Source: Atopobiaceae bacterium (GTDB taxonomy: Bacteria; Actinomycetota; Coriobacteriia; Coriobacteriales; Atopobiaceae). Taken from it: a stretch of DNA of 64,000 nucleotides. Every line of letters begins with the position of its first letter. Within the stretch, counting starts at the first letter, position 1. The notes beneath the pieces were generated by a model that was not told the DNA's origin, searched no databases, and was given only the letters and a program-made list of their open reading frames with translations. Positions 22,704-55,400 of the stretch are shown here, piece by piece. The DNA lies in the NCBI GenBank assembly GCA_017510785.1, contig JAFWMH010000032.1:9763-73762 (forward strand), in the 5' to 3' direction. The position numbers and the translations under genes are program-made.

Positions 22704-22778
22704 TGGCTGGGACACTAGGATTCGAACCTAGGTTGGCGGCACCAAAAACCGCAGTCCTAACCCCTGGACGATGTCCCA
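22704..22778 (-). tRNA. tRNA-Gln (anticodon UUG)
   Basis: The 75-nt reverse complement is TGGGACA TC GTCC AGGGGTTA GGAC T GCGGT TTTTGGT GCCGC CAAC CTAGG TTCGAAT CCTAG TGTCCCA G CCA. It folds as a full cloverleaf with a U1-A72 pair (typical of bacterial tRNA-Gln), a TTCGAAT T-loop and an encoded CCA. Confidence 0.93.
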
Positions 22779-30669: not shown

Positions 30670-30712
30670 GTTAAGCAAGGGAACGAGCTTGTTCCAAAGA
30701 GAAGGGGAGAAC

Positions 30713-31981: not shown

Positions 31982-32134
31982 TTTGAGTACACACTCATGA
32001 ATCATTAGCGTCAAAGAGGGGGTATCCCCAATGCCGGAAGGTTCGAGGGTTTCGCAAACCCTTAATGCACGGCTTGGGGGTGCCCCTTTTGGATTTCGTT
32101 TTTCCTGCAATATTGGTTCGACCGTTAGGAAGCC

Positions 32135-35740: not shown

Positions 35741-35805
35741 AGAACCGTTAGATCCTGTTGTGTGGCCGTTGGCGCTGTGAGCCCAGCGGCCTCTTTCTTA
35801 GCGTC

Positions 35806-35864
35806 GAAATTTAAAAATTGCAAAAGAATTTAAAAAACGCAAAAGAATTTAAAAATCGCAAAAA
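35806..35864 (+). repeat. AT-rich triple direct repeat (19-20-nt unit) upstream of the pilin-like operon; candidate regulator binding sites or curved DNA
   Basis: GAAATTTAAAAATTGCAAAA / GAATTTAAAAAACGCAAAA / GAATTTAAAAATCGCAAAA. About 85% A+T within a GC-rich genome. Confidence 0.7.
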
Positions 35865-36033: not shown

Positions 36034-36903
36034 GTGAAAGAGCGACTCGCAAAAAGGGTTTGGTCCGAGCGTGGCGCCTCCATGTCGATGGCGCTCATGC
36101 TGTTCCTTGTGGTAACGGTTGTTGCTTCCGTGGTGATTACGGCGGCAACTGCCGTATCGGGTCGTTACAGCCAATTGGCGGAGGCCGATCGTACCTACTA
36201 CAACGTAACGTCTGCTGCCGAGCTGTTTTGGGACAAGCTCAAGGAATCGGACGGAAGCGCGACTGTTGAGGTGGTCCGCGCGTGCGACGCCATGCTGGAA
36301 GACGACGTGTTCACGCCCATCGATTCCAGCTGGACCGTTTCTATAGACGACGCGTTTGGCCTCGGCGTTGCCCAAGATGGCAGCTCACTCACACCTAGAC
36401 TTAGCGCCGATACGGGTGCTTCGTTGTTCCAAATCGTGACTGCCGACCTCATCTTCAGCCCGGCGCCTGTTGGTTCGAGCGATACGCCTCGAAGCTATAC
36501 CTATGTGTTTGATGCGGATAACCCCGCTAGCGTGGGCAACACGATTGACTTTTCCGGCGGTGCGACCGAAGAGGACCCAGCACCCAAGGATCCGTCGTTT
36601 GCGGAGGCGAGTTACACTCCGTTTAGCATTACCTCGAGCAACGACGCGATTAAGCCCGTGTACGTAACGCTCAGGCGTGAGCCAAGCGAAACGTTTGAAT
36701 TCGTGTTCTCGGAGGCTTCGTGCGGAACGAAAAACAACTCGTTTAGGTGCACGCTCACAACGATGTCGGGCATTACCGACGAATCCATGCGCGACACGGA
36801 TCTTGGTAACGGGAAGCATCATCTTGAGTGGGTTACAACCGTTACGTGGGAGGCTGACGGACTGTCTGCGGGAGGTGGGAAGTATGAGCCGCAAAATCCT
36901 TAG
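36034..36903 (+). CDS. Pilin-like protein lacking Glu5 (PilX/GspK-type hydrophobic N-terminus)
   Basis: GTG start after GAGGTG. The N-terminus is ...WSERGASMSMALMLFLVVTVVASVVITAATAV, that is Gly followed by a ~22-aa hydrophobic helix with no Glu at +5, as in PilX_N/GspK-type minor pseudopilins. 289 aa. First gene of the cluster. Confidence 0.6.
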   Translation: MKERLAKRVWSERGASMSMALMLFLVVTVVASVVITAATAVSGRYSQLAEADRTYYNVTSAAELFWDKLKESDGSATVEVVRACDAMLEDDVFTPIDSSWTVSIDDAFGLGVAQDGSSLTPRLSADTGASLFQIVTADLIFSPAPVGSSDTPRSYTYVFDADNPASVGNTIDFSGGATEEDPAPKDPSFAEASYTPFSITSSNDAIKPVYVTLRREPSETFEFVFSEASCGTKNNSFRCTLTTMSGITDESMRDTDLGNGKHHLEWVTTVTWEADGLSAGGGKYEPQNP

Positions 36904-37204
36904 AGACTCTTCCGGCGAGACGATTGCGGAGACGCTCGTTTCGATACTCATCAGTGCGCTTGCTCTTACGCTGCTTGCCAGTGTGGTGGCAACCTCGGTA
37001 AACATCGTGACGAACAGCAGGGAGCATATGGACGAGTTCTACACAACCGAAGTTTCGATGGTGCGCAAGCCCGAATCCGAAGCTACGGATGCGCAGGTAA
37101 CGCTCGAGGTGCCGCTTGAGCCTGCCGATAAAATCGTAGACGTAAAGGTGTATTCGTCTGGCGAGAACAAGCCCATCGTGTACTACAAAACAAAGGAGGA
37201 ATAG
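36884..37204 (+). CDS. Small type IV pilin-like protein (106 aa) with a class III signal peptide
   Basis: Track ORF 36677..37204 trimmed to ATG 36884 (GGAGGTGGGA RBS). Reads MSRKILRDSSG|ETIAETLVSILISALALTLLA, with Gly at -1 and Glu at +5. Overlaps the previous gene by 20 nt. Confidence 0.75.
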   Translation: MSRKILRDSSGETIAETLVSILISALALTLLASVVATSVNIVTNSREHMDEFYTTEVSMVRKPESEATDAQVTLEVPLEPADKIVDVKVYSSGENKPIVYYKTKEE

Positions 37205-37206
37205 CC

Positions 37207-37806
37207 ATGGTATCCTCCGTATCGACGTCTCCTGCTGCCAATCGTAAAACGGGCGGCTTCTCGCTAACCGAGATGCTCGTGACGCTGCTCATTCTTGTAC
37301 TGGCCTCAACGCTCATGGCGACGGGGATTCCTGCGGCCATCGACGTGTACCACAAAATCGTAAAGACGTCCAACGCACAGCTTGCGCTTTCCACGACGCT
37401 TGCAGCAATGCGCGCCGAGATTGGCATGGCATCCGACGCTCGCGTGCTCACTGTTGACGAGAAAGATAAAATATACTACTACATACCCAATGAGGGTTGT
37501 TGGGCATCGATTCAAAACTCCGAAACGTATCGTGGGCTGGAAAAGCAGTACTACAAGGGCATGCCCACCGCGTCGGTATCGTTGGAAGACCTCACCCCAG
37601 ATGGTTCCAGCATGCCATTGATGAGTGACGAGGCCATAACCGAGAGCTTGGAAGTGAATCTTACGCCGATTCCCGCAACGAGTGACAAGGCGGGCGTGGA
37701 CCTTAGGCTTTCGGTAATCGACTCGATTAGTGCCGATAAAAACGTACTCGCGAGTGTTGGCGAGGGCGAAAATACGTTCCGCATCCTTACGAGATTCACG
37801 GAATAG
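37207..37806 (+). CDS. Type IV pilin-like protein (prepilin-type N-terminal cleavage/methylation motif)
   Basis: 199 aa. Reads ...NRKTGG|FSLTEMLVTLLILVLASTLMA, a canonical G|FxLxE motif plus hydrophobic helix. The start is 2 nt after the previous stop. Confidence 0.85.
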   Translation: MVSSVSTSPAANRKTGGFSLTEMLVTLLILVLASTLMATGIPAAIDVYHKIVKTSNAQLALSTTLAAMRAEIGMASDARVLTVDEKDKIYYYIPNEGCWASIQNSETYRGLEKQYYKGMPTASVSLEDLTPDGSSMPLMSDEAITESLEVNLTPIPATSDKAGVDLRLSVIDSISADKNVLASVGEGENTFRILTRFTE

Positions 37807-37822: not shown

Positions 37823-40381
37823 ATGGATACCAAACGAATGATGCAACACAAACGCGCAACGGGCGGCTTCACCATGGTGGAGATGATTATTGCCATTGCT
37901 ATACTCGTTATCCTTATGGGCGTTGCGTTCGTTAACGTATTGGCCTACCAACGAAGCATGAAGCAACTCGAGCTCGACAAGACGGCTCAAGAAATCTTCG
38001 TCGCCGCGCAAAATCACCTTACCGTGGCTAAAAGCCAGGGCATTTTGGAAGATGTAGACAAGAACAGTACTGCGCTGGTGGGCGAAAAGGACGACGGGGA
38101 AAGTGTGTACCGCTATTGGTATGTGTCGAGTGGCGACGCGAGGCTTAAGAGTGCCAATACGAGCTTGCTCTACGAAATGCTGCCGTTCGCATCCATTGAC
38201 GACACGGTTCGTCTTGGTGGAAGCTACGTGATTGCGTACGACCCAAATACGGCTACTGTTGTGAGCGTGTTCTATTGCGATCAGTCTTCTTTGAGTACGT
38301 ACCAGTTCTCTCCGAGCGACTACAGCACACTCTTTCCTGCGCTCGAGGGTACCTCGGACGACGTGGTGGCTGCTCGTCGTGACGGCATTAACGGGGCGGT
38401 TGTTGGCTGGTACGGTGGGGAGGGCCTTATCGACCGCACGAAGAAGGAACTTGTTGCACCCGAGATTAAGCTGACAAACGCTGAGCGTCTTGAGGTGACG
38501 GTGAGCTTCTCTACGAGTGCCATGCAACAAAATCGCGAAGTGGAAGACGCCGTGATGCGCCTTGTATTGCGGGGGGACACGAGCAAGCACAGTAAGATAA
38601 TTGCTACCGAGCCGTTGCTTTCCATGGCGTCGGTGGGTGGCGAGTATCGTAAGACGTACGTGCTCGACGACATTACGACATCTGGCCAACACTTTAAAGA
38701 GCTGTGGTGTGGAGCGAGCCTTTCGCTGGCCGCTAATGCCGGGGAGAGCGGACCGCTCATTCCTGGTGAGAATATTTCCGTTTACGCGCAGGTGTACAGC
38801 ACGAGCGTACTCTCGAGCATTGCGAAGAGTGCGACCAAGCACACCAATAGCCTGTTCGCACGTATGATTTCGGAGAAGGTAGACACCGAGACGGAGCGCT
38901 ACGCGGCGATAAATAACATTCGTCATCTCGAGAATCTCGATGCGGCGATTTCGGGATACGACCTCGAAGCGCTCGGTGAGGATGGCGCGACGAAGGCAAG
39001 GCAAATCAGCGACCTTATGTGGATTTCCAATTCGTCGTCCAAGAAGATCCGTGCCTTCGCAAACCGAATTGCCGGTTCCGTGGATGGCGCGAAGAACGTA
39101 AAAGTGCGCTACCTCGATGGCACATCAACAAAGGCAGGCACGTTTGCCCCCGTGACCCCGCGGAGCACCAGTGCTACCAACGTGCTTCGTCAGTACGCGC
39201 TAACCTACGAGGCCGACAAGGGTAGCAAGAAAATCTCTAACGTTAAAGTTGAGCTGGAGTCTGCGTTCAACGCGCCGGCAGGCATCTTTGCAACCGTGGC
39301 GAGTGGCTCTTCGATTTCTGGCCTTGAACTCGTGGATTGCAGCATATCCACAAAGGGCGGTAGTGCGGGCACATTGCTCGGCGTTGCGATGGGCACGCTC
39401 GACCTTACTAATATATTAGTGCACGACACCAAGGGCACGGTAAAGTCTACGGTTTCGAGTACGGAAGCTGCGGGTGGCCTCGTTGGCTTGTTGCAACCTG
39501 CTTCGGGCACAACCGTCACCATTGATGGTTGCGGTGCCGCGACGTTGGTTGAGGCTAAGGGCCAAGGAACGGCGGCGGGCGGCCTTGTGGGGTATGCGGA
39601 TGGCAACGTTTCCATCGCAAACAGTTACGCTGGTGGACGGACCAAGGATGGTGCGTACGATGCGGAGAATGCCAACGTAAAGGCTGGTAGCATCGCGAGT
39701 GGCGGAGTTGTTGCTCCAACTCAAGGCGTTGCTGGAGGGCTTGTGGGCTACACGCGCGGTGCAAACATTACATACTGCTATGCCACGGCGTCAGTTTCGG
39801 GCGAGGGTGCCATGGGTGGCCTCGTTGGGTACGCAGATAAAACCACAATAGGGAATTGCTACGCAACGGGTCTCATCATTGGCAACAAGACGCATGCGGG
39901 TGCCTTTGCGGGCAATATGGACGACGCGACGTACAACGCTTCCGCGAAGAACGAATCTGCGAACAACTACTACTTCGAGATGGTCAACAGCAGTGTCTAC
40001 CCCATTTCAAATAGGAAACCAGTCGTAGATGCGAATGGAAACCCAATTCCGACGCAAGAGCCGGTAGAACTCGATGGTCTCAAGCCTGTCGACAAGAATA
40101 CGAAGACCTTCAACGACTTCTGCACGGGCGATGCCGAAGGCACAGATGCAGCGGGCGAACCGGTACTGCGCAAGAACAACGAGAAGGCAGCTCCCTACGA
40201 CGAGTCGCTTGGGAAGCTCTACGCCAGGGCTGACGAAAACGATGCCACCGGGCAGACGTACAACAGCATCTACAACCTACGCACCATTAAACTGCTCAAT
40301 AGCAAAGCCGAAGGTCCTTGGGTTTCGTCCCACTATGGTGATTGGCCGTCACCAGAGACGCTCTTTGTTAATACCAAGTGA
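37823..40381 (+). CDS. Large modular type IV pilin-like protein (852 aa) with a C-terminal GLUG-motif repeat module
   Basis: Track ORF 37730..40381 trimmed to ATG 37823 (GAGGTG RBS). Reads MDTKRMMQHKRATGG|FTMVEMIIAIAILVILMGVAF. The module at ~39290-39925 has AAGGLVGLL, AAGGLVGYADGNVSIANSYAGG, VAGGLVGYTRGANITYCYATASVSG and AMGGLVGYADKTTIGNCYATG, which fit the GLUG motif pattern. The protein ends ...SSHYGDWPSPETLFVNTK. Confidence 0.85.
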   Translation: MDTKRMMQHKRATGGFTMVEMIIAIAILVILMGVAFVNVLAYQRSMKQLELDKTAQEIFVAAQNHLTVAKSQGILEDVDKNSTALVGEKDDGESVYRYWYVSSGDARLKSANTSLLYEMLPFASIDDTVRLGGSYVIAYDPNTATVVSVFYCDQSSLSTYQFSPSDYSTLFPALEGTSDDVVAARRDGINGAVVGWYGGEGLIDRTKKELVAPEIKLTNAERLEVTVSFSTSAMQQNREVEDAVMRLVLRGDTSKHSKIIATEPLLSMASVGGEYRKTYVLDDITTSGQHFKELWCGASLSLAANAGESGPLIPGENISVYAQVYSTSVLSSIAKSATKHTNSLFARMISEKVDTETERYAAINNIRHLENLDAAISGYDLEALGEDGATKARQISDLMWISNSSSKKIRAFANRIAGSVDGAKNVKVRYLDGTSTKAGTFAPVTPRSTSATNVLRQYALTYEADKGSKKISNVKVELESAFNAPAGIFATVASGSSISGLELVDCSISTKGGSAGTLLGVAMGTLDLTNILVHDTKGTVKSTVSSTEAAGGLVGLLQPASGTTVTIDGCGAATLVEAKGQGTAAGGLVGYADGNVSIANSYAGGRTKDGAYDAENANVKAGSIASGGVVAPTQGVAGGLVGYTRGANITYCYATASVSGEGAMGGLVGYADKTTIGNCYATGLIIGNKTHAGAFAGNMDDATYNASAKNESANNYYFEMVNSSVYPISNRKPVVDANGNPIPTQEPVELDGLKPVDKNTKTFNDFCTGDAEGTDAAGEPVLRKNNEKAAPYDESLGKLYARADENDATGQTYNSIYNLRTIKLLNSKAEGPWVSSHYGDWPSPETLFVNTK

Positions 40382-40437: not shown

Positions 40438-43400
40438 ATGCGCGACAACAAACACGCCTCACCACGACTGGGCAAGCCAGCGCTGCTTTCCATTGCAATA
40501 GCCCTTTCGATTGCAACCGTGGTGGCGCTTGTCCCAACACTATACGGCTGCAAGCAGGCGGGTTCCGCCACGCCAACCTTGACTGCTGGCAAACGCCCAA
40601 CGCAAAGATCAACTGTTGGGGTCGGAGCGTTCGCGCAGGGCAAAGGGTCGCCATCATTGCGCGTTATTCCAGCGGCGAGCCTGGACGGCGGAGTGGGTGT
40701 TGATGAGGGACCGCTTACTGTTAGCGATGCCAATCCATACGCCAGCTCTGGATATGACTCTGGTTCTAGCCCTAACGTAAGCTATGGTACCGTGCTCGAT
40801 TCAGAGGTTTCGGCGCCCGCCCAAGAGGACAGCACTTGGACGCAAACGCTCTCGCAAACCATCGAGCCAGCCGAAGGGGTGTTCTACACCGTTTCGGTTA
40901 CGTACGGGGATGATGCTGGCATCAGTCCGGATGCAACGCTGGTGGTGGAAGAGCTCGAGTCCAACGATGAACGTAGGAACGCACTGCATGCGCTTCTCAA
41001 CGTACGGGAAGACGAATGCGTCTTCCAAGACGTATTCCTCAAGATAGCGCTAAAAGTTGGCGAGGAAGAGGTCCAACCGAATGCTTCCGTCCGTGTTGCG
41101 GTGGAGACGAACCGCATTGCACCGCGCCAATCCGATGCCGTTGAGGCGTCGGTGATTGGTGGTAGTGGCGAAGGCAGGCTAACGGTGATCAATCGAACGG
41201 GTGCGGTTGATGGCGTCAATTCCGACGGTGGCGGCGAGACGGCCGATCCATCGGCAACTGCCCTCAGGTTCCAAGCCTCGGGACTTGGCGAGGTTGGCTT
41301 TGCTGTGGTGGCCACCCCCAAGCACCAAACGGACATTAACGGAGAAGTGGTAACGGTGCTCGGGCCTCGCACAAAGGGCATTGAGTGCGTGGAAAACGAG
41401 ATAAACGAACAAATCTCCGATGACCAAACGATCGTGCGAGCACTCGCGGTGGTGAGTGAGCCGGCGCACGCCTGGCCCACCACAGTGTGGATGAAGGTGG
41501 ACGACGCCCGCCCGGACGAAGAGCGCAATGGCCATCTCACCGTTTCGGCGTATGAGTCGGGCGAGATTCGCGAGGAGCTGTTTGGTCTTGGGTCCACGAA
41601 CAATCCGTTCTCAACCGACACGTCGCGTGAGCTTGCCCTCGTGTGGCATGGCAATCCCGATGCCGATGCGAGCGAGGATGCTGGTTGGGAATCTGGCGAC
41701 CAAGCTCCTTCGGAGGGTGCGGAATCCACGCATGAAGAGGAGAAGGCCCACGAGGAGAAAGTCCGCGCCGAAGAGAAAAGCCACGAGGCGGACGAGCATG
41801 CCAAGGATGCCAGCAAGGAAGTCAAAAAGGAAACCAAGGGCTCAGCCAAGACTGAAGAAAAGGCTGCAGATAAAACCGAGGCCGAGGCAATCGTCGTGGC
41901 TGAGGGAGGCCAACAGCTTCGGGCGACCGACGGTTCGACATATCACGTTACGGTGACCTATGGCGACTCCGCGGGAATTCCGCAAGGTGCTGAACTGCGC
42001 GTGCGGGAGATTACGAAGAACGACATGGATTATGTAGAGTACCTCGCACAGAGCGCGCGGGAGCTTGGGGTGGAGGCTACCGACACTTCCTTCGCGAAGG
42101 TGCTCGACATATCGTTCGTCGATCCCGTGACGGGTAATGAGTTCGAGCCCACGGGTGACGTTCACGTGCGCATCGAACTGGCGGGCGAGAGCTTGGTGTC
42201 GAGCGAGGAAGCCGGCGTTGTTCACTTTGGCGACAAGGTTGAGGCGCTTTCCTGCGATGTGAGCGACGAGCAAGTTGAGTTCACTGTTGACGGGTTCAGT
42301 ACGTTTGTAGTGATGGGGTACGGCACGTCCAACCCTGAGGCCAGCGAGAGCGCAGACGGGGACACGGACCCCGAGTATACTGTCCCGACGCCAGTGGAGG
42401 GTCTTGTCTACACAGGCGAAGCGCAAGAATTGGTAACTGCTGGAACCGTGACGGTCGGTACCATGAAGTACAGCCTGCAGGAGGATGGCGAGTACGACAC
42501 AGCAGTGCCCACTGGAACCAATGCCGGAACCTATACCGTTTACTACATGGTGGAAGGTGACGAGACGCACAACGACGTTGCCGTGAACAGTGTGGAAACT
42601 ACCATCGCACCTGCACCGGTTACTCTTACGGCTGTGAGTACCTACAGGAACTATACCGGTGAGGAGCAAGTGTTCTCCGGTTTTACCGCGAGCGTGGAGG
42701 GGCTCACGTTTGAAGGCGTCGTGGCATCGGGCAGCGGCACCGAAAAGGGAGCGTACGATGTGACGTTCACGGGCGTTGTACCCAACGAGACAACCGATAG
42801 TACGGGCAACTACATCGTTACGCAAACGACCAACGGTACCCTCACTATTCAAACGTTGCTAACCAAGAGACTTGCCAGCTTTAACGGAAACCTTGCGACT
42901 TACGAGCTTGTTGTTAACCCGGAAGGTTACCAGCTCAACGGTGGGCAGTCCTTCACCCTCAACGACAGGTTGATGGATAAGAAGAACGACTCATCGGTCG
43001 TAACCAACAACCAATCCATTAACTATAGCTCCGTCGGCATCGAGCCTGCGGATGCCGGCGTAGTATTCGACTACAGCGGTTATACGGGCACCTTCGTGAT
43101 TCCGGACGCCACGGCCGTAACCATAACGTACACGACACGTGTTGAGGGCAACGCGGGCGAGAACGTGTGGTTTGGCAACGTTTCGAGGCTCATGGCCGCA
43201 GGGGGTGATTCCCTTGGCGAGTTGGCGAACGTCAGCGCTGTTGAGACCGAAACCATCACCCCAACTGGTACCGACATTTCCGGTACGGGTGGCGTCTACA
43301 GCATCGAGCTCTATACCTATGCGGATGGCCACATGGAAACGGGTCTCGCGGGGGCAGAGTTCCGCCTTCTCGATGCCAATCAGCGTCCCATAACGTATAA

Positions 43401-46400
43401 GGCCGGCGAGAACGAAGGGAAAGAGGTTACCTTTGTTACCGAGTCGGATGGCTACGTCACCGTTCAGCTAACGGAAGAGCAAGACGGCCTGTACATTCAT
43501 AAGAACACTCCATATTATTTGGAGATGCTCAAGGCTCCGGTCACCGAAAATGGTGACGATACTTTCACGTATTACGAAAAGGACAACACGCTCTACGGAT
43601 TCCTTGTTACCGACGATCCCGACTATACGTACAAGGACGTATATAGCTACTTCAACGGCGACGTGCTAAAGGTTCGCTGCTATGAGGAGTCGGAAGGCAT
43701 TCACGTTACGAAGCGCTTCGCTGGTAACCAAACCATTTCCGACGAGCAGAAGAACGGGATTGTTTTTATCCTCGAGAAGGAGAACACGGCAACTGGCGGC
43801 TGGGACGAGGTTGAGCAGCACCCGTATAGTGAGTTTACGTGGGGCTCCATGGCCTTCAATACGGGCTCCAAAGGATGGAGCGCACACGACTATGGCGCAA
43901 CGTATCGTGTACGTGAGGAGAATGCCGAGGTAGAAGGCGTCGATCTTAACGATACCTGCTTTGTGAGTGTTGAGGGTAGGGGCAAGTCGACTACGGAAGA
44001 GAGCAACGAGTTCCTCGTCAATCCGGACGAAGAGGCATACAGCTTTAGCCTCGTGTTTACCAACGAGTACTTCAATCATCGGTTGGACATTACCGTTCTG
44101 GACGAGGAGCACGGCACCTTGCTTCCCGGAGCGGTTTTCGAGGTGCGCGCTGCTACAGGTGAGGAAGCGGCCCCGGTTGCGACGCTTACTACTAACGAAA
44201 GCGGAACGATTGAAATCACGCGGACTGCCGATTATCAGCCCGATACCCTGTATTATGCCGTGGAAACAACCGCGCCCGAAGGATACTTGCTTCCAGCTGA
44301 TGCCGAAAAGGCGTACTTCTACTTCTCCGAGAATAACACGAAGGTACCCGAGGGTCTTCCTGCGGGAGAATCGGCTCTCGACCTCACCAAGTCCTACAGC
44401 ACAATGATGGTGGCGAACAGTAAGCAAAAAATCCACTTCCCCGTAATCGTTGCATGGGGCCTCACCGGAATTGGCGAGTGGCCCGATTCGGTTTCCAATG
44501 TGGACGTGTCGCTCACGCAGTCCGTAAAGGATGGGGAAGAGACGCCTGTGGAAGGCAAAACGGTGCGGCTTACGTCCGCAAAGAACTTCGACAACAGCGT
44601 GTTCAGGGATTTGCCCGCTCGCGACGAAGATGGCAAGGACATTACGTATACCCTCGTGGAGACCATCCACGATGCAAACGGTAACGACATCACGAAGCAG
44701 TTTGCCGTGTCCCAAACGATAACGGGCACGGGTTGGCACTTGCTTCGCAACCAAGACGCGGTGAGCGTAACAATACAAAAGCAATGGTTCGCGCAGGATG
44801 GCTCCCCAGTTAGCGGTAATAACAAAGAAGCGGTGAAGTACGACCTGTACTGCACTACGGAGGAACTCGAGGGCCAAAGTGGCGCCATTGCGCGCGAGGA
44901 CTTGGAGAGTCACCTGAAGTCGGCCAAAAAGATTCGCGGCGAATTAACGCTCTCGAAGGAAAGCGAGTGGAAAGACACCGTATACTCGCTGCAAAAAACC
45001 GATGCTAGTGGCAATCCGTATTACTACTTCGCCTTGGAAGACGAAGGTTCCATGCCTCAGAACCATGAGGATACCTATACGATAGCTCCCGCAACGGAGA
45101 GCGCCAACAGAACCCTCACCATTCGGAACACGCAAACCGATATTACGGTTATTGTTAAGGCAAAGGATTGCGAAAAGACGTACGGAGGCGAAGACCCAGT
45201 CTTTGGTTTTGACGTGACCGTTCAGGACGCCCATACCACGGCCACGTGGGAAAAGGTCGCAGGCGAGGATAACAAATACAACGTCACAGTGACCGCGGAA
45301 GACAATAGCACGCATTCCTTCACCTTCACGCTAAATCGGGAAGAAGGGGAAAATGTTGGAACCTACACCCTGACGCCTGCCAAGGTGACGGACCTGCATG
45401 GTTACCGCGTGAGGTTTGATGAGGGAACCCTCACAATACACCGTGCTGAGGCTGTGGTGACTGCTGGTGCACAAAAGGTGTATGGCGACGAGGACCCCGC
45501 GCTCGTAACTATAACTGGATTGATGAATGGCGACGGCGAAACTGTAATTCGCCACGAGGAATACCGTGAGCCTGGCGAGGATGTGGGCGAGTATCCCATT
45601 ACCGTAAGCGGCGCAAGAAATCAAGGCAACTATAGGGTTACCTTCGTGCAGGGTTCTCTCTCAATAACTCCAGCTGCTGCGACTGTGAAGGCGAATAATT
45701 CGAGCAAGGAGTATGGCGAGGAGGAGCCCGAGCACACGGTTAAGATTACGGGACTGAAGGCTGGCGATGCTGAGGGCGTCATCGAGTACTCGCTCCTGCG
45801 CGAGCCAGGCAACAACGTAGGAACGTATGCCATCTCCGTGACGGGCGACGCAGCCCAAGGCAACTACAACGTTACATTCGTGAATGGCGAGTTCACCATT
45901 ACGCATGCGCCGGCTGTTGTGAAAGTTGAGAACGCGGAGAAAACATATGGCGTTGAGGATCCAGCGTGGGTTGTGACTATTGATGGATTGAAGGGCAATG
46001 ATCCAGAGAGCTTGATTGTCTACAACGTGAGCCGAGCAGCAGGCAATAACGTTGGTGATTATACTATTACCGCGACCGGAGAGGCGGAACAGGGCAACTA
46101 CTCGGTTACGTATGAAACCGGAACGCTGAGCATTCAGCCGGCGGAACTCACGGTGACGCCAGACGAAAAGTTCAGGTCCATAAACGACTCAGCGGATCCC
46201 GTGCTAACGGCCACCGTCACCGGTTGGCAGTATAACGACGACGAGGCTGTTCACAGCGTCGTGGAAGGCAAAGAAGTCTATACGCTCAACGGAACTACGA
46301 TTCTTACCTTTGCCTTGTCGCGCGAGGCTGGCAATGATCCTGGCGATTACGTGATTAGTGCAGCCGGTGAGTCGGCACAGGGCAATTACGTACTGAACTA

Positions 46401-49400
46401 CGAAACGGGTACGTTCACCATTCTCGCGGTTCACAACGTCGACGTTTTCCAGGAAACTTCCGACCTCGTGGACCCCAGCGCCAATCCTGCGTACAGCTAC
46501 GTGGCCCAGTTGGATTTGAGTGGTACGGGCCTGAGTAGCGCGGCGGGTTTTGACGAGAACAATCAGTGCGCTTTTGGACTGCCTGGCGAAGGTTCGAACC
46601 ACAATCAATTTAACATGCAGATTCCCTACGGTGCGAAGCTTACCGTTACGCAAACGAGCGCCAACAGCGACTACCTTACCACGTTGGCAGTGGACGGCGC
46701 CTCCTACGATGACGGTGGTTCAGCCAGCTGCGTTATTGATGAGGTAAACGACTACTATGCCATCACCTTTACGCACACGCGCATCAGCCTTCCCGTACAG
46801 GCTATGGCTGGTATCGATCAAACGGAAGAAGGTGCTGCGACGGTTGGGCATGTGTGCCATCTGGGCATTCCGGGAGGCGACGCACACGAGCAGCTCTTCA
46901 ATAACGATACGGAACCATACTTGCAGGAAACCCTTGGTTACACGTTGCCGACGGATAAATACTACGAATTCGATCACGCGAGCCTCTTTGCCGAGAATGG
47001 TACGAGCATTGCTACTGGCGTTACGGCGGTAACGTATGATCAGGCGAGCGGCAATTGGAAGTACAAGACCGATGGCGACTATGCGGACCTTCCCGATGGT
47101 GCCGTGGTTCGTATGTACTACTATCCCAAGTACATTTGCAAGGTTGGCGAGGAAAAGTTCTACACCCTGAATGCGGCTTTGGATTATGTGCAGGAGACTG
47201 CCGCAAGCCAAGGCGGCGAGGAGCCTGCGGAGGCCCAGTCGAAAACAGCTACAATCGAGATGCTGCTCGGTGAGTATCGTATGCCCGCAACCGATAGGCT
47301 CACCATTCCTGCCGGATACGATATTACGATTACGACGGCGACCGAGGGATACACGGGAGCCTCTACTCCTGCGGTCATTAAGAGGAGGAACGGCTTCTCC
47401 GGCAATTTGTTCGTCAACAACGGCAAGTTGACGTTTAAAACAATAACGTTGGATGGTAACGGCGAAAGCGTTACCGGCGCGGACGCATTGGTGTTGAACA
47501 ACGAACATTCCGAGCTGCTGGTAGACGGCGATGCAATCGTTCGGAACACGAACGGTGTTAATGGCAGCGCGCTCTACATGGCTGGTGGCACGGCAACGAT
47601 TAATGGTGCGTTGCAAGGTTACTATGCCACGCATGGCGGAGCCGTGTACGTAGCTGGCGGCATGCTGAACATCGCCGGCTCAGTTAGTACCACTAATGGT
47701 GCGGTAACCGCTACAAGTGGTGGCGCGGTCTTCATGACAGGTGGCACGGTGAATGTTCAGGCCGGTGCGACTATGAATGGCAATACAGCCGTGAACGGCG
47801 GCGTATTCTATGTTGAGGGCGGCACCGTTAACATCGGTGCCGGCACCCTGAACAACAATAAGGCAACCAATGCTGGTGGCATGCTCTACGCCACGGGTGG
47901 AGACGTTAATATAACTGGTGGCACCATCAAGACGAATCAGGCCGTGAATGGCGACGGAGGAGCCATCTTCTATAATGCTCCGGGTGCACTCAAGGTTTCG
48001 GGTGGCACGCTCCAAGGCAATAAGGCGACGAATGGTAACGGTGGCTTCATTTATCAGTCGTCTGGTGAAGCTACGCTTTCGAGTACGATTAACGAGACTA
48101 ACACTGCCAAGAACGGTGCGGCGATTTACGTGCACGCCGGCATTGCGAACTTCAATGGAGTGAACATTACTGGGAACAAAGCCACTGAAGGCGGTGCCGT
48201 GGGCGTAGACGAAACGGCGAGACTCTACTTCTATGGCAATGCGAAGGTTACAGGCAATACTAATAGCAGTCTCTCCACGAGCAAAAAGGACTGCAACGTT
48301 TACTTGGACGAAGACTCCGACGAGATCATCAATGTTCCTACGGCAGAAATGGGCGGCAGCGCTAACATTGGCGTATACGTGGCCGATAGCGTTCGTGCTA
48401 CGCGTGGTGAGGTGTGCTGCAGCTTCGGTGCATATGTGAGCACGAAAAATTTGGCCAAGTTTAAGGATGATCGCGGCTTCTACAATGTGTACAATGCGGG
48501 CAACAAGCTCTACTGGGGCAAACCGATAAAGTATACGGTTCTGTACAAACAATCGGGCCTGTTACCCACATCTTCGGGAACCACGCAGCTTCAAGCGGCA
48601 AAAGAGTACTACCCGCGGAAGACGGAAAATGCCATCTACGACCTTGTAACGACGCTTTATAACGAACAATACAAAGACAAGATTCAGTCGGGCTACGTGT
48701 ATGCGTATTCGTATGTGAAGAACGCGACCGCGTTCGAGAAGTACATCACGAACATCGATTGGGATGCAACGAGTCGGAAGTGGGTCTTCAAACAACATGA
48801 CGGCACGTCAACGAACGCAACAAATGAGTTTACGATTTACTATTCTGATGCGGCGTATATTTCGGTTGTGAACAACAGTGGTTACGATCTCACCATCAAT
48901 CCTCTCACAGTGATGGGGAAGGATGTTGTATCGGACGGATATGGTTACACCATTGCAGTCAATAACGTAACGAAGTCAACACTGGTACCGATTACCAGTG
49001 ACGAGCTGACGATTCCGCATGAGGGCTCGGTCAAGCTGTTGTTCCCGGGCGCCACGAGTTCGAGCTGGTCTACCGACGGCGTGTTTGCGGGGGCTACAGC
49101 AGCGAATGCCATTTCCTATACGCTGGATAGTGCCCATGGTGGACAGCCACAGCAACTAGCGACGACTGATGTCGAAGGGGGCGCAGGGTTCAACAACCTT
49201 TCCGGCACCCTGTTGAGCGATGCTGGCGTTGTTTACGAGATTCTCTTTGGCGACCCAACCCCCATTTGCAAGGTGGGCAACGTGCCCTTCACGAAGCTGA
49301 CTGATGCTATGTCGTACATCACGACCAATGGCATGACTACGGCGACGATTGAAATGCTGGTGGATTACCAACAGCCTGCGGACGATATCCTCGAAATACC

Positions 49401-52400
49401 TGAGGGCTATAACATTACTCTAACGACTGCCGAACGAAAGAGCGCCTCAAATCCGCTCGGGTATGTTGGCGAGGATTCCACACGGGCAGCTATCAGTCGT
49501 AGCTCGGGCGATATGGGTTCCGCAGTAAAGGCACTTATACGAGACGATAACACTACGGTTCTCACGACAGACGAACAATGCACAACGTCAATTACGCTAA
49601 GCAACATAATCTTCGATGGTAAGGCCCTTGGCCAAGGTGGGCAAGGTGGTGCCATTAGTACGGTAAACACGAAGGTCAGCGTCGATGGCTGCGAGTTTAA
49701 GGGTTATACTGCGGCTCGCGGTGGCGCGGTATATACGAGATGGGGTCAGCTGGAGGTGAAGAATTCAAACTTCACAAAATGTCTTACGCTTTCTACCGCT
49801 GATAAAACAGGTGGTGGTGGCATTTGGACTACTGCGCATTCTCTATTGGTGGAGAACTGCGTGTTCAATGAGTGCTCTTGCCCCAACGTATCGAATGGTA
49901 GGGCGCAGGCGGGTGCCGTATTCCACAATATTCGAAATGACGGGGCGGTGGTCTATCCCAACGATCCTCAAAAGTTCCCAAAGGGTTTCTCGAAGGGATC
50001 GCAGACCGATATTATTGATTGCAAGTTCTATGACTGCTATGCTGCGAATGGCTCCGGCGGAACGGTGGAGTCTGACGCTTGGGTAATCAATATTGAGGGT
50101 TGCGAGTTCTATCGAAGCGAAACCCGTAAGGCTGGTGGCAACGGTGGAGCAGTCAATATTTATTCGAACGATAACACGAGCATTTCCAAAGATAGTATCC
50201 TGACTGTCGAGGACTGTTATTTCGAAGACTGCTCGGCGCCGAACGGAAATACAAATGGTGGCTGTGTACGTACAAATACATATGCTGCAGTTGTGAGGAA
50301 TAGCGTCTTTAGAAACGCGCGCTCCAACAATACGGGTGGCGCTTTATCGATGACGTATGGGACTGCTGGTAGACTGGAAATTGATGGATGCGCGTTTGAA
50401 AACTGCAGCTCGGGTACCAAGTGTGGCGCTGTTTATGCGCAGGCGCTCGTCCTCACAATTAAAGATTCGTTCTTTACGAACTGCACCTCACCATCGTATG
50501 GTGCGGTTTATCAGGATAAAGATTCTACAGTTGCATCGGTTACTGTGAGCAATAGCAGTTTCGAAAACTGCTCCGCTACGAACAGCGGTGGCGGCGCACT
50601 CTATGCTACGGCCAGAAACCTAAGCATTAGTGGTATGTTTGGCGGGAAAAGCTATACTACGAGCAGCGGAGAGTACGGGTATGCCTGTGGAGACGAATCG
50701 TTCACGTTCGACAATTGCACTGCAACTCGTGAGGGCGGCGCAGTGTACCATACGACTGCTGGTACCGAAACACTTTCTGATGTTGTGTTCACGAGTTGCT
50801 TGTCGGGAGTGAGTGGTGGCGGTGCATATCTCGGCAATTCGAAGCTTGCCGCTTCGAATGCAGTATTCAACAACTGCAAGGCAGCGAACAGCGGTGGAGG
50901 TCTCTACATCTCGCCAAGTACGAATGGAGCTACCTTTAGTGATGACTGCTCGTTCTCAGGCAACTGGGTTACCGCTTCGGATGGCAAGGGCGGATCGCTC
51001 TACATTAATCAGGGCACCGTTACGATTAACGGGGGTTCCTTTGCGGACTCGAAGGCAGCTTACGGTGGCGGTATTTATCAAAAAGGAACGCTCACGCTAA
51101 ATGATACGAGTATTGCAGGATGCTACGCAGCAATGGCGGGTGGCGGTCTCTACCACGAAGGCACAACCACAGCTTCTGGTTCCATTGCCGACTGCTATGC
51201 CGCACGCGGTGGCGGCGTGTATTCATCGGGAGCGCTTACGATGGGCAGCGCCCCCGGCGCCATGAGCATTAGCGGTTGCTACGCGAAGGGCGTCACCATT
51301 AGCGAGGATGGAACGGCAACAGTTGCCGCATCGTTCACGCCCGATAACTTGGGCGGTGGCGTGTACAACAATGCAGGCAACGTGTCTAGTGCTGCGACAA
51401 TCGAAAACTGCAACGCCTATGATGGCGGAGGTATCTACCAAGCCAATGCCACCTTTACCACGTCTGGTGGCAGCATCGAAGGTAATGATGCTACCCACTT
51501 TGGCGGCGGCGTGTATTACGCAGGCGGCACGTTTAAGATGTCGAGTGGCGTGAGTGACGTTTTGGTTACAGGCAACACTGCCAACAAGGGCGCCGGCGTG
51601 TTCGTGGCCGATGGCAAGACGATGGATGCTAACGTCTGGGGCGGCTATCATTGTGAGATTTCTGGCAACCATGCCCGTAGCGAGGGGGGAGGCATCGCCG
51701 TAGGCGGCCCGAACGCAATACTGAAGTTTAAAGACTACATTATTGTGAAAGATAACACGCAGGTTGACGAAGACACCGCGTGCAATATCTACTTGGATCA
51801 GAACAGCAATACGGTGATTCAAACGAGCGGCACGCTTGATACAAAGTCATACATCGGCGTTTATGCTTCAAATGCTCAAGAAGCGGCACACGGAGTTCCT
51901 GCCATGCCCTTTGGCACTAGGGCAAACGATAACAACCTCAATCGCTTCTTTAACGACCGCATACCGTATCTCTATGGCTATAAGGGTGCAAACAAACTAA
52001 TAGTGTGGTCGGATTTTGTCTGCAGAATTACTGATGGCGAGGGGAACTTGCTCTACAAGGACGCGGAGTGCACTATGCCTGCGGTGTATCCGGTGCTTGA
52101 GAACGATGGCACAGAAAGCGCATTCGGTGCTTTGGCGGCTGCAAACTACAAGCTGTACAACCACGAGCGGGAGTACGGCAAGCAAAGTGGTGATGCGTAT
52201 CAGGTCCAGATGTTGGTGCAGGATTATGCCGCAACAAAACCAATGAAGCTTGAAACTGGCAAAACGGTGACACTGACTACCGCTACCGAGAAGGATGAGT
52301 GTGGATTCCAGTACAACGGCGATCCCAAGCATCCGTATGCAACAATAACAAGGGCGGCAAATGACTTCAGCATGATATCGAACACGGGCGGGAACTTGAC

Positions 52401-55400
52401 CCTTGCCAAAGTCGTTGTTGACGGTGGTTCCGAAGCCGGGCGTTCGACCAATACCAATGGCGGTTTGATCATGATTACGTCGGGCGGCACGGTAACCCTC
52501 GACGATGGGTCAACGCTACGAAATTCGCTCCGCTCCGGCAATACTGGCTCAGGAGCAATTCGCATGGAGTCAGGTACAAATAACATGCTCGTCATGAAGG
52601 ACGGAGCGCTCATTACGAATTGCAGTGGCTCCGAATACGGTGGAGCGATAAGCGTGAAGCAGGGAACATTTAGCATGGAGGGTGGCAGCATCACCAACTG
52701 CTCCTCCAAAAGCGGTGGTGCGGCACGCATAGATACGAATATGTATATGTCGGGTGGCGTCATCAGTGGAAATAACGCCACAGTTGACGGTGGTGGCATC
52801 TCAATTGGTGGCACAGGGTCACGGCTGTACTTCTCGGGCAATGCGGTTGTTCAGGACAACACGTTGAATGGCAGTACGACCTGTAATGTCCAGCTGTCGC
52901 AATATACCCATGGGGTTATCAATACCTATGGTGACGGCTTGGGTGCCGAGGCCAAGATTGGCGTATACACAGCGGGTACCGAGAGCAACACCAGTTCGCT
53001 GTACTACAAGCACGGAATGGCGACCAAACCCTTCGGTACGTGGGCGAGTGACGCCAACTTGTACTGCTTCGTTAACGACCGCAACGGTTTGACCGGCGGA
53101 AAGAAGGACCTGACGAGCGCCACGGATAAAACAATCTACTGGGTGGGCAAGCCGGTGCTCGCCATTATGAAGGTGGTCGAAAGCGATTGGTCCGCAGACA
53201 AGAACACGGCGTTCAGCTTCACCGTTACGCTCGATATGGAGATGCCTGCGGGTGGCATGGCCGCGTATGGCTTCGTCGCGGGCGAGGACGGCAAACCGAC
53301 ACGCACCTTCACCCAAAAGGATGGGGAAGACGCGTACCAAATCGACCTGCCGGAGAAGCTGCGTGGCACGCCCTATACCGTGACGGAGAACCTTACGAGC
53401 GACCAAGAGAGTGACTTCAACACTCAGATCCACAAAGTGGCAAGCGATCTTGAGGAGTCCATTGGCGGCCGTAGCATTGCGGGTATCCTCGGCGAGCACG
53501 GTACCACCACCTCCGACCTGACGTTTACCAACACTCGCGTGACGGGCGAGCTCAGCGTTTCCAAGACGATGCAGAGCAAGGACGAGGCAGACTTTAATAA
53601 GGCCTTCGACTTTACGGTGACCTTGGACGATGCAACCATCACCAAGGTGTATCCTACCGTCGTGACGCGCGTGAATGAGGGTGGCGAGAAAACCGAGACG
53701 GACGAAGAGATTTCGTTCGTGGAAGGTGTCGCCAACCTCCAGCTCAAGCACGACGAGAGCGTGACGATTAAGGATCTTCCCACAGATGTGCCGTACACAG
53801 TTTCCGAGGTGGTTCCCGAGACGGATCAGGATGCGTACCGCACGCGTGTGAGCAAGGACGGCGCGACTTCTCATGCGGGGACGTCGCAAGCGGGCACCGT
53901 TGGCGAGGTCGTTAAGGAAGGTGTTTACACGTCCAGCGTTGACTTCATCAACAATCGCTTGGAAATTGTCTGCAAGATTACCAACGCGAACAGAGAGCTC
54001 TTGTACTACAAGGACAACGGGGAACTGACGCCGGCCATTTACTTCCGGTTGGAGGATGCGTTTGTGCAAATCAACAACGGTGGGTTGCGAACCAGCAGCG
54101 ATGGCTCCGCCTCGGGCGCGTTGCACATCGAGATGGTCGTGACTGATTACACCATGGAAGAGCCGGCCATCTTGAACAAGGGCAAAACCGTAACGCTTAC
54201 GACGGCCCGCACGACTGACGAACGGTATCCCTATAACTATGGTAAGGATGACGAGAACGGCAACACCTCCGTCGTCTTGCGTGGATACAACGGCGACAGC
54301 ATGATTGTTGATAGCGGAACCCTTACCGTGGATAACATCACGCTGGATGGCAATGCCGAGAACAACTACGTTTCCACGGGAAGTGGTGGCATCATCAAGA
54401 CGAACGGCAACGTGCGTCTTACGGTGAGTGCGGCTGCAACCCTACGCGATTCCACGGTGAGCGAGGAGAACGGCGGAGCCATCTGGATGGACGAGAACGC
54501 GCAGCTCACGATGAACGGAACGATTGACAACTGCAAGGCTTACGCAGGCGGCGGAATCTATGCGACCCCGAACTTTAGGTCCGTTACTGTGGGTGGCACC
54601 ATATCCAACTCCGAGGCAACTACCGGAAACGGCGGCGCGGTTTGCGCAGGAACGGGCGGCACTGTAACGATTAACAACAATGCAATGCTTGAGGCGAACA
54701 AGGCCCATACGTATGGCGGTGCGATTTACGCCGAGAGTGCAGTTACCGTAAAGGGCACAATTAGGAACAACACTGCTCACGATGGTGGTGGCGTGTACGT
54801 TGGCGAGGGGGCCGCGTTTACCATGTCCGCCGGATCGGTTGCTGGCAACGAGGCCCTTGGCGGCAATGGCGGAGGCATTTGGGTGGACGGAACCACACGC
54901 ATCACTGGTGGCAGCTTTGCGGAAAACAAGGCGCTCGATGTACTTGATTCCGGTAATGGCAAGGGTGGTGCGATTTACACGACCACTAGCGCAGTCGTTT
55001 CCATCTCTGGCGCGAACACGACGTTCGCGGGTAACCAGGCCAAGCAGGGTGGTGCGATTTACGACCAGTGCCTTGTAACCATGGCGGGAGGCAGCATGAC
55101 GGCCAACACCGCGACCGAAACGGGTGGCGCGGTTTACGTGGATGCCGAGCACCTGTTTACGATGTCGGGTGGAAACATAAGCGGCAACAGTTCTCCTGAG
55201 GGTGCCATTTCCACGGGCGAGCACGTCGTGCTCACATTCTCGGGCAATTCAGTGGTGAGTGGCAATACCTCGAGCGATGACGCGACCGTGCCCATGAATG
55301 TGTACCTGGGGTACGACACTAACGCCATCATTACAACCTCTGGCCTCGGGAGGAACGCCAACATTGGCGTGTACGCTGCTGACGGGGAAAACGAGGACAT

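What the first reader, a model, noticed from the sequence alone, without database searches (positions are those of the whole stretch)
37823..40381. 852-aa modular pilin: a class III signal and pilin helix fused to a GLUG-repeat module
Typical pilins are 100-200 aa. This one has a canonical G|FTMVE N-terminus followed by ~800 aa. That region includes at least four (A/M)GGLVGY-type GLUG units spaced ~30-45 aa apart (about 39290-39925), each followed by N(S/C)YA(T/G)G-like strands, plus a conserved-looking HYGDWP C-terminal end. GLUG motifs are known from IgA1-protease-type and other surface proteins. Modular pilins with grafted adhesive modules have been described in Streptococcus sanguinis, with different modules. 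A GLUG beta-solenoid grafted onto a pilin would put an adhesive or enzymatic module on a filament.
Basis: partly seen in the sequence, partly recalled or inferred. Interest (0 to 1): 0.65.

Follow-up and report, generated by a model that had tools for sequence, protein, structure and literature searches.

The report
Pilus subunit carrying a GLUG β-helix
This 852-residue protein is a real type IV pilus subunit carrying a large non-enzymatic β-helix module, and it belongs to a widespread, unstudied rumen-bacterial family that sits beside, or is fused to, giant adhesins of up to about 5,000 residues.

Summary
ORF 37823-40381 (+) encodes 852 aa. It passes the Pfam cut-offs for N_methyl (25.4 bits, cut-off 21.2) and Glug (30.8, cut-off 20.5). 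It ends in an invariant HYGDWP motif. The AlphaFold2 model (pLDDT 83) shows a 54-residue α1 helix with a small β-sheet head, then a β-sandwich, then a β-helix. The best structural matches are the non-catalytic N-terminal domain of M26 IgA1 proteases and PDB 3n6z. There is no HExxH, so it is not a protease.

It is not a one-off:
- 701 clusters (50% identity) match at E≤1e-30.
- 221 species genomes carry a relative, mostly rumen Coriobacteriia and Bacillota.
- It is the last gene of a conserved four-gene pilin cassette (g1-g4; g1 lacks Glu5).
- In 25 of 80 related loci, type IV pilus machinery (PilB, PilT, PilC, PilD, PilM/N/O) lies within 10 kb.
- A giant surface protein is adjacent in most loci. 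Here that is the 5,844-aa ORF 40438-57972.
- Twelve of the 221 retrieved family proteins are N-terminal-pilin proteins of 2,803-5,095 aa. In the four whose sequence I read in full, the pilin is fused in-frame to a giant of this kind.

The N_methyl-GLUG architecture was already listed, uncharacterised, in a 2021 survey. The cassette, the link to giant adhesins and the multi-thousand-residue pilins turned up nowhere in my literature searches.

The parts
36034..36903 (+). g1: 289-aa pilin-like protein without Glu5 (SERG|ASMSMALMLFLVV...). Candidate PilK/GspK/ComGG-type cap subunit.
   Evidence: Found directly upstream of the g4 homologue in 76 of 80 related loci. The N-terminal motif G|AS[LI]x[FM]ALLLFLV is conserved and position +5 is never Glu. 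Family hits are only weak: ComGG_2 12.8 bits and PilX_N in 1 of 29 members.
36884..37204 (+). g2: 106-aa small pilin (SSG|ETIAETLVSILISALA). Glu5 is present.
   Evidence: Present in 65 of 80 loci in the same position. Glu16 is invariant and Gly11 nearly so. N_methyl is detected in 16 of 30 family members.
37207..37806 (+). g3: 199-aa pilin (KTGG|FSLTEMLVTLLIL).
   Evidence: N_methyl scores 20.6 bits, just under the 21.2 cut-off, and TIGR02532 scores 17.5 bits, above the 16.3 cut-off. Present in 73 of 80 loci. The family profile matches the N-termini of solved pilins at E=3e-4.
37823..40381 (+). g4: the 852-aa modular pilin of the finding.
37823..37867 (+). g4 leader peptide (residues 1-15, basic, ending in Gly15). 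Predicted prepilin-peptidase cleavage site G|F.
   Evidence: N_methyl/TIGR02532 matches. G15 is invariant in 50 sequences.
37868..38035 (+). g4 α1 helix of the pilin module (residues 16-71), with the invariant Glu20 (= Glu5 of the mature protein) and the invariant AAQNHL motif.
   Evidence: AlphaFold2 places a helix at 18-71 in both models. The family profile matches the α1 of solved pilins, 9egp at E=1.2e-6 and 8tj2 PilA at E=6.5e-5.
38036..38437 (+). g4 globular head of the pilin module (residues 72-205): four β-strands plus short helices.
   Evidence: The model of residues 1-215 has pLDDT 92.5 and pTM 0.82. Foldseek found no significant match to solved pilin heads.
38450..38917 (+). g4 β-sandwich (Ig/FN3-like) domain, about residues 210-365.
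   Evidence: Strand pattern in the model. Secondary Foldseek matches are to FN3, cytokine-receptor and GH2 Ig-like domains.
39140..39922 (+). g4 GLUG β-helix, about residues 440-700 (four clear GLUG units plus one degenerate).
   Evidence: Pfam Glug. The family profile matches 3n6z at E=1.7e-4. Foldseek matches: 7uvk 1.5e-5, 3n6z 5.5e-5 (TM-score normalised to target 0.57), 6xja 1.4e-4. No HExxH.
40331..40348 (+). HYGDWP motif (residues 837-842). It marks the C-terminal end of the sandwich + β-helix unit.
   Evidence: Invariant in the alignment. In proteins with 2-3 tandem units, most copies end in [HQY][YFC]GDW. In fusion proteins the giant part follows it.
40438..57972 (+). g5: 5,844-aa surface protein. 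It has a lipobox-type signal (TLYG|C), repeated β-helix modules, MBG_2 ×5, SpaA ×2 and Cna_B, and no LPXTG. It is the partner of the cassette.
   Evidence: Homologous giants are adjacent to the cassette in 32 of 42 loci with full flanks. The retrieved family proteins include 12 N-terminal-pilin proteins of 2,803-5,095 aa; in the four read in full, g4 is fused in-frame to a g5-like giant.

Best explanation
g4 is a large 'modular' minor type IV pilin.

Shown by computation:
- A class III signal with invariant Gly-1 and Glu+5.
- A 54-residue α1 helix with a small β-sheet head.
- Then a self-contained unit of β-sandwich + GLUG β-helix + HYGDW tail.
- The β-helix is homologous to the non-catalytic, ligand-binding N-terminal domain of M26 IgA1 proteases. 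It has no metalloprotease motif.
- g4 is the fourth gene of a conserved cassette of four pilin-like genes. One of them (g1) lacks Glu5.
- In many relatives this cassette is part of a retractile type IVa pilus gene cluster (PilB, PilT, PilC, PilD, PilM/N/O).

Inferred:
- A prepilin peptidase, encoded elsewhere in this genome, removes the 15-residue leader.
- g1-g4 assemble into the tip (priming) complex from which the pilus grows. The module of roughly 650 residues is therefore exposed at the pilus tip as a binding or presentation device, not an enzyme.

Inferred more weakly:
- The module works together with the adjacent giant adhesin g5. [quoted passage not shown] In this genome the giant is a separate, probably lipid-anchored protein. 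It either docks on the tip complex or acts alongside the pilus.
For: HMM thresholds are passed. N_methyl is found in 29 of 36 and Glug in 24 of 36 homologues. G15 and E20 are invariant.

Structure. The AlphaFold2 model has pLDDT 83.3 and pTM 0.78, with α1, head, sandwich and β-helix. Foldseek top hits are IgA1 proteases and 3n6z. The family profile also matches 3n6z by sequence. In the pneumococcal enzyme this β-helix is the Fab-binding, gating, non-catalytic domain (PMC7695701). g4 has no HExxH.

Cassette. g1, g2 and g3 lie upstream in 76, 65 and 73 of 80 loci, each with pilin-type N-termini.

Machinery. It lies within 10 kb in 25 of 80 loci. T2SSE, T2SSF, peptidase A24 and PilM pass the Pfam cut-offs; the PilN- and PilO-like proteins gave only sub-threshold hits to PF05137 and PF04612. 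PilT TIGR01420 scores 417 bits against a 319 cut-off.

Giant neighbour. One is adjacent in 32 of 42 loci with full flanks. In-frame fusions were seen in four MAGs from two phyla. Twelve of 221 retrieved family proteins are N-terminal-pilin proteins of 2,803-5,095 aa; the four read in full carry a g5-like giant after the HYGDW motif.

Framework from the literature. Minor pilins form a tip-located complex capped by a subunit lacking Glu5 (PMC10191384). [quoted passage not shown]
Against: No pilus machinery or prepilin peptidase is visible in the 64-kb window.

The head domain, although confidently modelled, has no significant Foldseek match to any solved pilin (best E=0.22).

g1 is not recognised by any pilin model at threshold.

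g5 has its own lipobox-type signal, conserved in Coriobacteriia, so in this organism it may simply be membrane-anchored and never ride on the pilus.

No conserved docking peptide was found at the extreme C-terminus of the giants.

Cleavage, methylation, filament incorporation and any ligand are all untested.
Confidence: 0.65

Rival explanations
1. The four pilin-like proteins build a short pseudopilus, like type II secretion or Com systems, rather than an adhesive pilus. Its job would be to push or thread the giant protein g5 through the thick cell wall. On this view g4's β-helix is a cargo-binding adaptor, as in type IVb systems where a tip minor pilin recruits a secreted cargo.
For: A four-minor-pilin set with one Glu5-less member is also the type II secretion layout (PMC10191384). 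Giants lacking any wall anchor are encoded next to the cassette. No major pilin or machinery is seen in the window.
Against: Where machinery is linked, it includes a PilT-family retraction ATPase that scores above its cut-off, plus PilM and PilN/PilO-like genes. That is the type IVa pilus layout. In fusion proteins the 'cargo' is covalently part of the pilin, which fits display better than release.
Confidence: 0.15
2. The N-terminal motif is not processed. g4 would then be a type II (signal-anchor) membrane protein holding a β-helix on the cell surface, and the pilin-like neighbours would be similar membrane proteins.
For: Processing was not tested. The head domain has no significant structural match to solved pilins. 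No peptidase gene lies in the window.
Against: Invariant Gly-1 and Glu+5 have no role in a plain membrane anchor. The α1 sequence matches solved pilins. A24 prepilin peptidase and assembly ATPases lie next to the cassette in many relatives.
Confidence: 0.1
3. g4 and g5 are functionally linked but never physically joined in this organism. The pilus (with g4 at its tip) makes first contact and retracts. The lipid-anchored giant g5 then locks the cell to the substrate.
For: g5 has a lipobox of the PROSITE type (TLYG|C), conserved in Coriobacteriia homologues. No conserved terminal docking peptide was found.
Against: Recurrent in-frame fusions of the pilin to the giant, in two phyla, argue that physical linkage is at least compatible with function. 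This rival shares the first steps with the best explanation and differs only in the last one.
Confidence: 0.3
4. The GLUG module is a peptidase of family M26 displayed on a pilus. This was suggested for the IPR012902-IPR011493 architecture in PMC8179133.
For: The GLUG motif and the Peptidase_M26_N region are typical of IgA1 metalloproteases. There are weak Peptidase_M26_N hits in 3 of 36 members.
Against: g4 has no HExxH or H..EH. No Pfam hit to the catalytic regions was found. In the solved enzymes the catalytic residues lie in the middle and C-terminal domains, not in the β-helix (PMC7695701).
Confidence: 0.02

Closest known systems
Modular minor pilins PilB (vWA module) and PilC (lectin module) of Streptococcus sanguinis type IVa pili (PMC8179133, PMC9934059)
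   Same: A class III signal plus a small pilin module followed by a bulky module not specific to pilus biology. Both are minor pilins of a monoderm type IVa pilus and are thought to sit at the tip.
   Different: The module here is a β-sandwich + GLUG β-helix + HYGDW unit that can be repeated 2-3 times. The companion set is four pilin-like genes, including one without Glu5, rather than PilA/B/C. There is tight linkage or fusion to multi-thousand-residue adhesins. The sizes (852 to 5,095 aa) exceed the 860-aa extreme noted in that survey.
InterPro architecture IPR012902-IPR011493 listed in Dataset S1 of PMC8179133 (6 proteins)
   Same: The same two signatures. That IPR011493 is the GLUG entry is my own knowledge; it is consistent with the paper calling it an M26-related module.
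   Different: It was only catalogued, and was read as a predicted peptidase. Here the module lacks the catalytic motif, and the family is far larger (701 clusters at E≤1e-30).
N-terminal β-helix domain of M26 IgA1 metalloproteases (S. pneumoniae 6xja, G. haemolysans 7uvk) and BACOVA_03286 (3n6z)
   Same: A GLUG-containing β-helix fold, supported by both structure and profile matches. In the enzyme this domain binds the substrate's Fab.
   Different: No middle or C-terminal catalytic domains, no HExxH, no G5 domain and no LPXTG. The module is attached to a pilin instead.
PilHIJK minor-pilin tip complex with the PilC/PilY1 adhesin of diderm type IVa pili (PMC10191384; PMC13533445)
   Same: Four minor pilins, one lacking Glu5, plus a very large adhesin encoded alongside.
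   Different: g5 has no PilY1-type β-propeller (no such Pfam hit) and no conserved C-terminal plug was seen. In some species the adhesin is fused to a pilin rather than docked. The hosts are monoderms.
CofB/TcpB of type IVb pili and GspK of type II secretion (large minor pilins with extra structural domains)
   Same: An oversized minor pilin at the filament tip that can recruit another protein.
   Different: No sequence or fold relationship was detected. The machinery type is different (PilT, PilM/N/O present).

Membership tests
Type IV pilin (class III signal peptide protein) | Short basic leader ending in Gly, then a hydrophobic segment with Glu at mature position 5 | tested here: met
   N_methyl 25.4 bits (cut-off 21.2) and TIGR02532 20.0 bits (cut-off 16.3). 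G15 and E20 are invariant in 50 homologues.
Type IV pilin (class III signal peptide protein) | Long N-terminal α1 helix packed on a β-sheet head, resembling solved pilins | tested here: inconclusive
   AlphaFold2 gives a helix at 18-71 plus four strands at pLDDT 92.5. The α1 sequence matches solved pilins. Foldseek with the 1-215 model found no significant pilin match (best E=0.22).
Type IV pilin (class III signal peptide protein) | Genetic linkage to type IV filament machinery (assembly ATPase, platform protein, prepilin peptidase) | tested here: met
   Met for the family: 25 of 80 related loci. Not met inside this 64-kb window.
Type IV pilin (class III signal peptide protein) | Cleavage and N-methylation by prepilin peptidase; incorporation into filaments | not testable with these tools
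   Needs mass spectrometry of the mature protein and of sheared pili.
Modular pilin (sensu Raynaud et al. 2021, PMC8179133) | Pilin module followed by a domain not specific to pilus biology | tested here: met
   Glug PF07581 30.8 bits (cut-off 20.5). Fold matches to the IgA1 protease N-terminal domain and 3n6z. The unit is repeated as a block in 19 of 221 family proteins.
Peptidase family M26 (IgA1 metalloprotease) | HExxH zinc-binding motif and catalytic middle/C-terminal domains | tested here: not met
   No HExxH. No Pfam hit to the catalytic (middle/C-terminal) M26 regions.
Peptidase family M26 (IgA1 metalloprotease) | GLUG-containing N-terminal β-helix | tested here: met
Core minor-pilin set (PilHIJK / GspHIJK / ComGD-GG type) | Four co-encoded pilin-like proteins, one lacking Glu5 | tested here: met
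   g1 has no Glu5. g2-g4 have it. The order is conserved in 65-76 of 80 loci.
Core minor-pilin set (PilHIJK / GspHIJK / ComGD-GG type) | Sequence membership in the H, I, J or K families | tested here: inconclusive
   Only sub-threshold NCBIfam hits (ComGE, ComGF, ComGG_2, GspH). Profile searches of g1 and g2 against solved structures found nothing.
PilC/PilY1 tip adhesin (considered for g5) | C-terminal β-propeller domain ending in a conserved plug peptide | tested here: not met
   The Pfam scan of g5 shows MBG_2, SpaA, Cna_B and DUF7601 only. The extreme C-termini of 23 giants are not conserved.

The most novel reading that the evidence does not exclude
Rumen monoderms, both Coriobacteriia and Bacillota, may use a retractile type IV pilus whose tip complex carries a multi-thousand-residue β-helix/Ig-repeat adhesin. 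The adhesin is either a separate partner (as here, 852 + 5,844 aa) or part of one polypeptide with a class III signal peptide of up to 5,095 aa. To my knowledge that would be by far the largest pilin described. It would also be a monoderm counterpart of PilY1 display that uses covalent fusion or a GLUG-module adaptor instead of a C-terminal plug.
Probability: 0.4. Interest if true: 0.8.

Novelty: new variant of a known kind. Interest (0 to 1): 0.6.

Why it matters
Modular pilins are the current explanation for how Gram-positive type IV pili gain adhesive functions, but only two have been studied, both in one streptococcus. This family offers three things:
- A third, structurally different module.
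- A complete four-pilin tip set in monoderms.
- Natural split and fused versions linking a pilin to giant adhesins. These form a ready-made test of how very large proteins are presented on a retractile filament.

The family is concentrated in ruminant gut bacteria, where attachment to plant fibre, other microbes or host surfaces governs digestion. At least two carriers, going by their genome record names (NK2B42, NK3B98), appear to be cultured isolates, so the predictions look testable.

Tried and rejected
- Foldseek with the N-terminal 215-residue model against the PDB gave no significant hit. Fold-level membership of the head domain therefore stays open.
- phmmer of the C-terminal 513 residues alone against PDB sequences found nothing. 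Only the family profile reaches 3n6z.
- Profiles of g1 and g2 against PDB sequences found nothing meaningful. Pfam on g1 homologues gave one weak PilX_N hit in 29.
- The peptidase reading was rejected because HExxH is absent.
- A sortase-anchored reading of g5 was rejected because there is no LPXTG-like motif.
- I looked for a PilY1-like conserved terminal 'plug' in the giants. The extreme C-termini are variable, and the last conserved element is a SpaA-like domain.
- I looked for a c-di-GMP riboswitch or other known RNA upstream of g1 and found none.
- Promoter and terminator scans were no better than shuffled controls, apart from a hairpin after the upstream ABC-transporter genes.
- The 64-kb window holds no pilus machinery.
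- Literature searches for GLUG with pilin, and for 'giant pilin' phrases, found no description of this family.
Full report
**The observation.** ORF 37823-40381 (+) encodes 852 aa. The ATG start follows a GAGGTG ribosome-binding site. Homologues align from it, and an independent gene call on a 99%-identical public contig uses it. The N-terminus (basic 15-residue leader, G|FTMVEM, hydrophobic stretch) passes Pfam N_methyl (25.4 bits, cut-off 21.2) and TIGR02532. Pfam Glug scores 30.8 bits (cut-off 20.5), E=3e-7, with 3 stretches. By pattern there are four clear units starting at residues 550, 585, 637 and 664, and one degenerate unit at 626. HYGDWP at 837-842 is invariant in 36 homologues. Only the quoted spacing (really 27-52 aa) is loose.

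**Structure.** With a 36-sequence alignment, AlphaFold2 gives pLDDT 83.3 and pTM 0.78. The model has these parts:
- one continuous helix at 18-71;
- a small four-stranded head to about residue 200;
- a β-sandwich at about 210-365;
- a helical connector;
- a β-helix at about 440-700;
- a less confident tail ending in HYGDWP.

Foldseek against the PDB puts three matches first: Gemella haemolysans IgA1 protease (7uvk, 1.5e-5), Bacteroides ovatus BACOVA_03286 (3n6z, 5.5e-5, TM-score normalised to target 0.57) and pneumococcal IgA1 protease (6xja, 1.4e-4). The family profile also reaches 3n6z by sequence (E=1.7e-4). In the pneumococcal enzyme this β-helix is the N-terminal domain. It binds the Fab of the substrate and gates the active site, and the catalytic residues lie elsewhere (PMC7695701). 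g4 has no HExxH and no hit to the catalytic M26 regions. The module is therefore a binding-type β-helix, not a protease.

The N-terminal 215 residues modelled alone are very confident (pLDDT 92.5) but have no significant Foldseek match to solved pilins. The pilin assignment therefore rests on the signal and α1 sequence (matches to solved pilin N-termini), the overall topology and the genomic context.

**Family.** A word-indexed search found 695 or more mostly full-length homologues. The exhaustive search of 1.84 billion cluster representatives found 7,993 hits at E≤1e-3 and 701 at E≤1e-30. In one-genome-per-species GTDB contigs, 221 stretches encode a relative. Of the 80 best loci, at least 59 carry names that mark them as ruminant gut genomes (RUG, RGIG, ruminal and similar). 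They span Coriobacteriaceae, Atopobiaceae and Eggerthellaceae (Actinomycetota) and Lachnospiraceae, Oscillospiraceae, Erysipelotrichaceae, Mogibacterium, Oribacterium and Butyrivibrio (Bacillota). The only source-given name seen was the generic 'prepilin-type N-terminal cleavage/methylation domain-containing protein'.

**Context.** g4 is the last of four co-oriented, tightly spaced or overlapping genes.
- g1, 36034-36903: G|ASMSMALMLFLV, no Glu5.
- g2, 36884-37204: G|ETIAETLV.
- g3, 37207-37806: G|FSLTEML.
- g4: the finding.

The same three genes precede the g4 homologue, in the same order, in 76, 65 and 73 of 80 loci, with conserved pilin-type N-termini. N_methyl is detected in 16 of 30 g2 homologues, and the g3 profile matches solved pilins. 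The window itself holds no pilus machinery. However, 25 of 80 related loci have it within 10 kb, often as one array: [giant] g1 g2 g3 g4 pilB pilT pilC … pilD pilM pilN pilO. Pfam thresholds are passed by T2SSE, T2SSF, peptidase A24 and PilM; the PilN- and PilO-like assignments rest on sub-threshold hits. A PilT-family ATPase scores 417 bits against a cut-off of 319, and PilB carries an MshE-type c-di-GMP-binding domain. A set of four minor pilins with one Glu5-less member is the recognised make-up of the tip or priming complex of type IV filaments (PMC10191384).

**The giant neighbour.** ORF 40438-57972 lies 57 bases downstream of g4 and encodes 5,844 aa. It has a lipobox-type signal, MBG_2 ×5, SpaA ×2, Cna_B and DUF7601. 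By my reading of the translation it also has repeated GGAxY-type β-helix modules. It has no LPXTG. Homologous giants (tblastn hits in 60 of 80 loci) lie directly after g4 or directly before g1 in 32 of 42 loci with at least 5 kb on both sides. They share three features: a first domain of the form 'YxVTVxYdxxAxIPxxAxL', a last SpaA-like domain 'GVFxIGxLPYGTYY', and the lack of a wall anchor.

In four metagenome-assembled genomes from two phyla (L004, L076, L034, L016), the pilin continues in-frame past HYGDWPxxE…N through a low-complexity linker into the giant, which has lost its own signal peptide. Twelve of the 221 retrieved family proteins are N-terminal-pilin proteins of 2,803-5,095 aa. In the four of these whose sequence I read in full (P0122, P0162, P0163, P0197), the part after HYGDW is a g5-like giant. 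Two others (P0121, P0135) instead carry tandem copies of the unit followed by other domains. Another 19 proteins carry two or three copies of the sandwich + GLUG unit, most copies ending in [HQY][YFC]GDW. That shows the unit is a self-contained, transferable module.

**Interpretation.** I add that it is a minor pilin of a four-member tip set of a retractile type IVa pilus, and that it is non-enzymatic. It is also evolutionarily coupled to giant adhesins. Physical display of g5 on the pilus in this organism is an inference. g5's conserved lipobox allows the alternative that it stays membrane-anchored and merely cooperates with the pilus. No PilY1-like terminal plug (PMC13533445; bioRxiv 10.64898/2026.09.18.752573) is evident.

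**Novelty.** The two-signature architecture IPR012902-IPR011493 is already listed for 6 proteins, and was read as a possible M26 peptidase, in the 2021 survey of modular pilins. That IPR011493 is the GLUG entry is my own knowledge. I found no paper describing this family, its cassette or pilin-giant fusions. The 2021 survey cited an 860-residue protein as its extreme case. I therefore rate it a new variant of a known kind, of moderate to high interest to pilus specialists.

Noticed in passing
window 40438-57972 (+): A 5,844-aa ORF lies directly after the pilin gene. It has a lipobox-type signal (TLYG|C), repeated β-helix modules, MBG_2 ×5, SpaA ×2 and Cna_B, and no LPXTG. Public gene calls on the 99%-identical contig L081 do not report it as a single gene (small minus-strand ORFs plus one truncated + call), although it is open for at least 3,314 codons.
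   Followed up: partly
window 35773-35863: A terminator-like hairpin (35773-35788) follows the ABC-transporter genes. It is followed by a 19-bp ×2.9 tandem repeat AATTTAAAAATCGCAAAAG (35808-35863), about 170 bp upstream of g1. This may be a regulatory site. No Rfam family matches.
   Followed up: partly
L012 4726-7592; also L019, L038, L015: In related loci the pilus assembly ATPase carries an MshE-type c-di-GMP-binding N-terminal domain. Response-regulator-like genes recur beside the cassette. Together these hint at c-di-GMP control of the pili.
   Followed up: partly
proteins P0121, P0135, P0130, P0024 and others; loci L044, L052: The β-sandwich + GLUG β-helix + HYGDW unit is duplicated or triplicated in tandem in 19 of 221 family proteins.
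   Followed up: yes
L013 6853-7581, L019 9105-9818 and 8 other loci: A conserved ~240-aa protein with an N-terminal hydrophobic segment sits between pilC and pilD in the machinery clusters. It has no Pfam or NCBIfam match. It may be an unrecognised pilin-like or assembly component.
   Followed up: no
window 22707-22778 (-): A single tRNA gene, the only Rfam match in the window.
   Followed up: no
window 30440-35740 (+): A BMP-family lipoprotein plus ABC ATPase plus two permeases lie immediately upstream, forming an ABC transporter. Synteny is shared with contig L081 but not with the pilin cassette elsewhere, so it is unrelated to the finding.
   Followed up: partly
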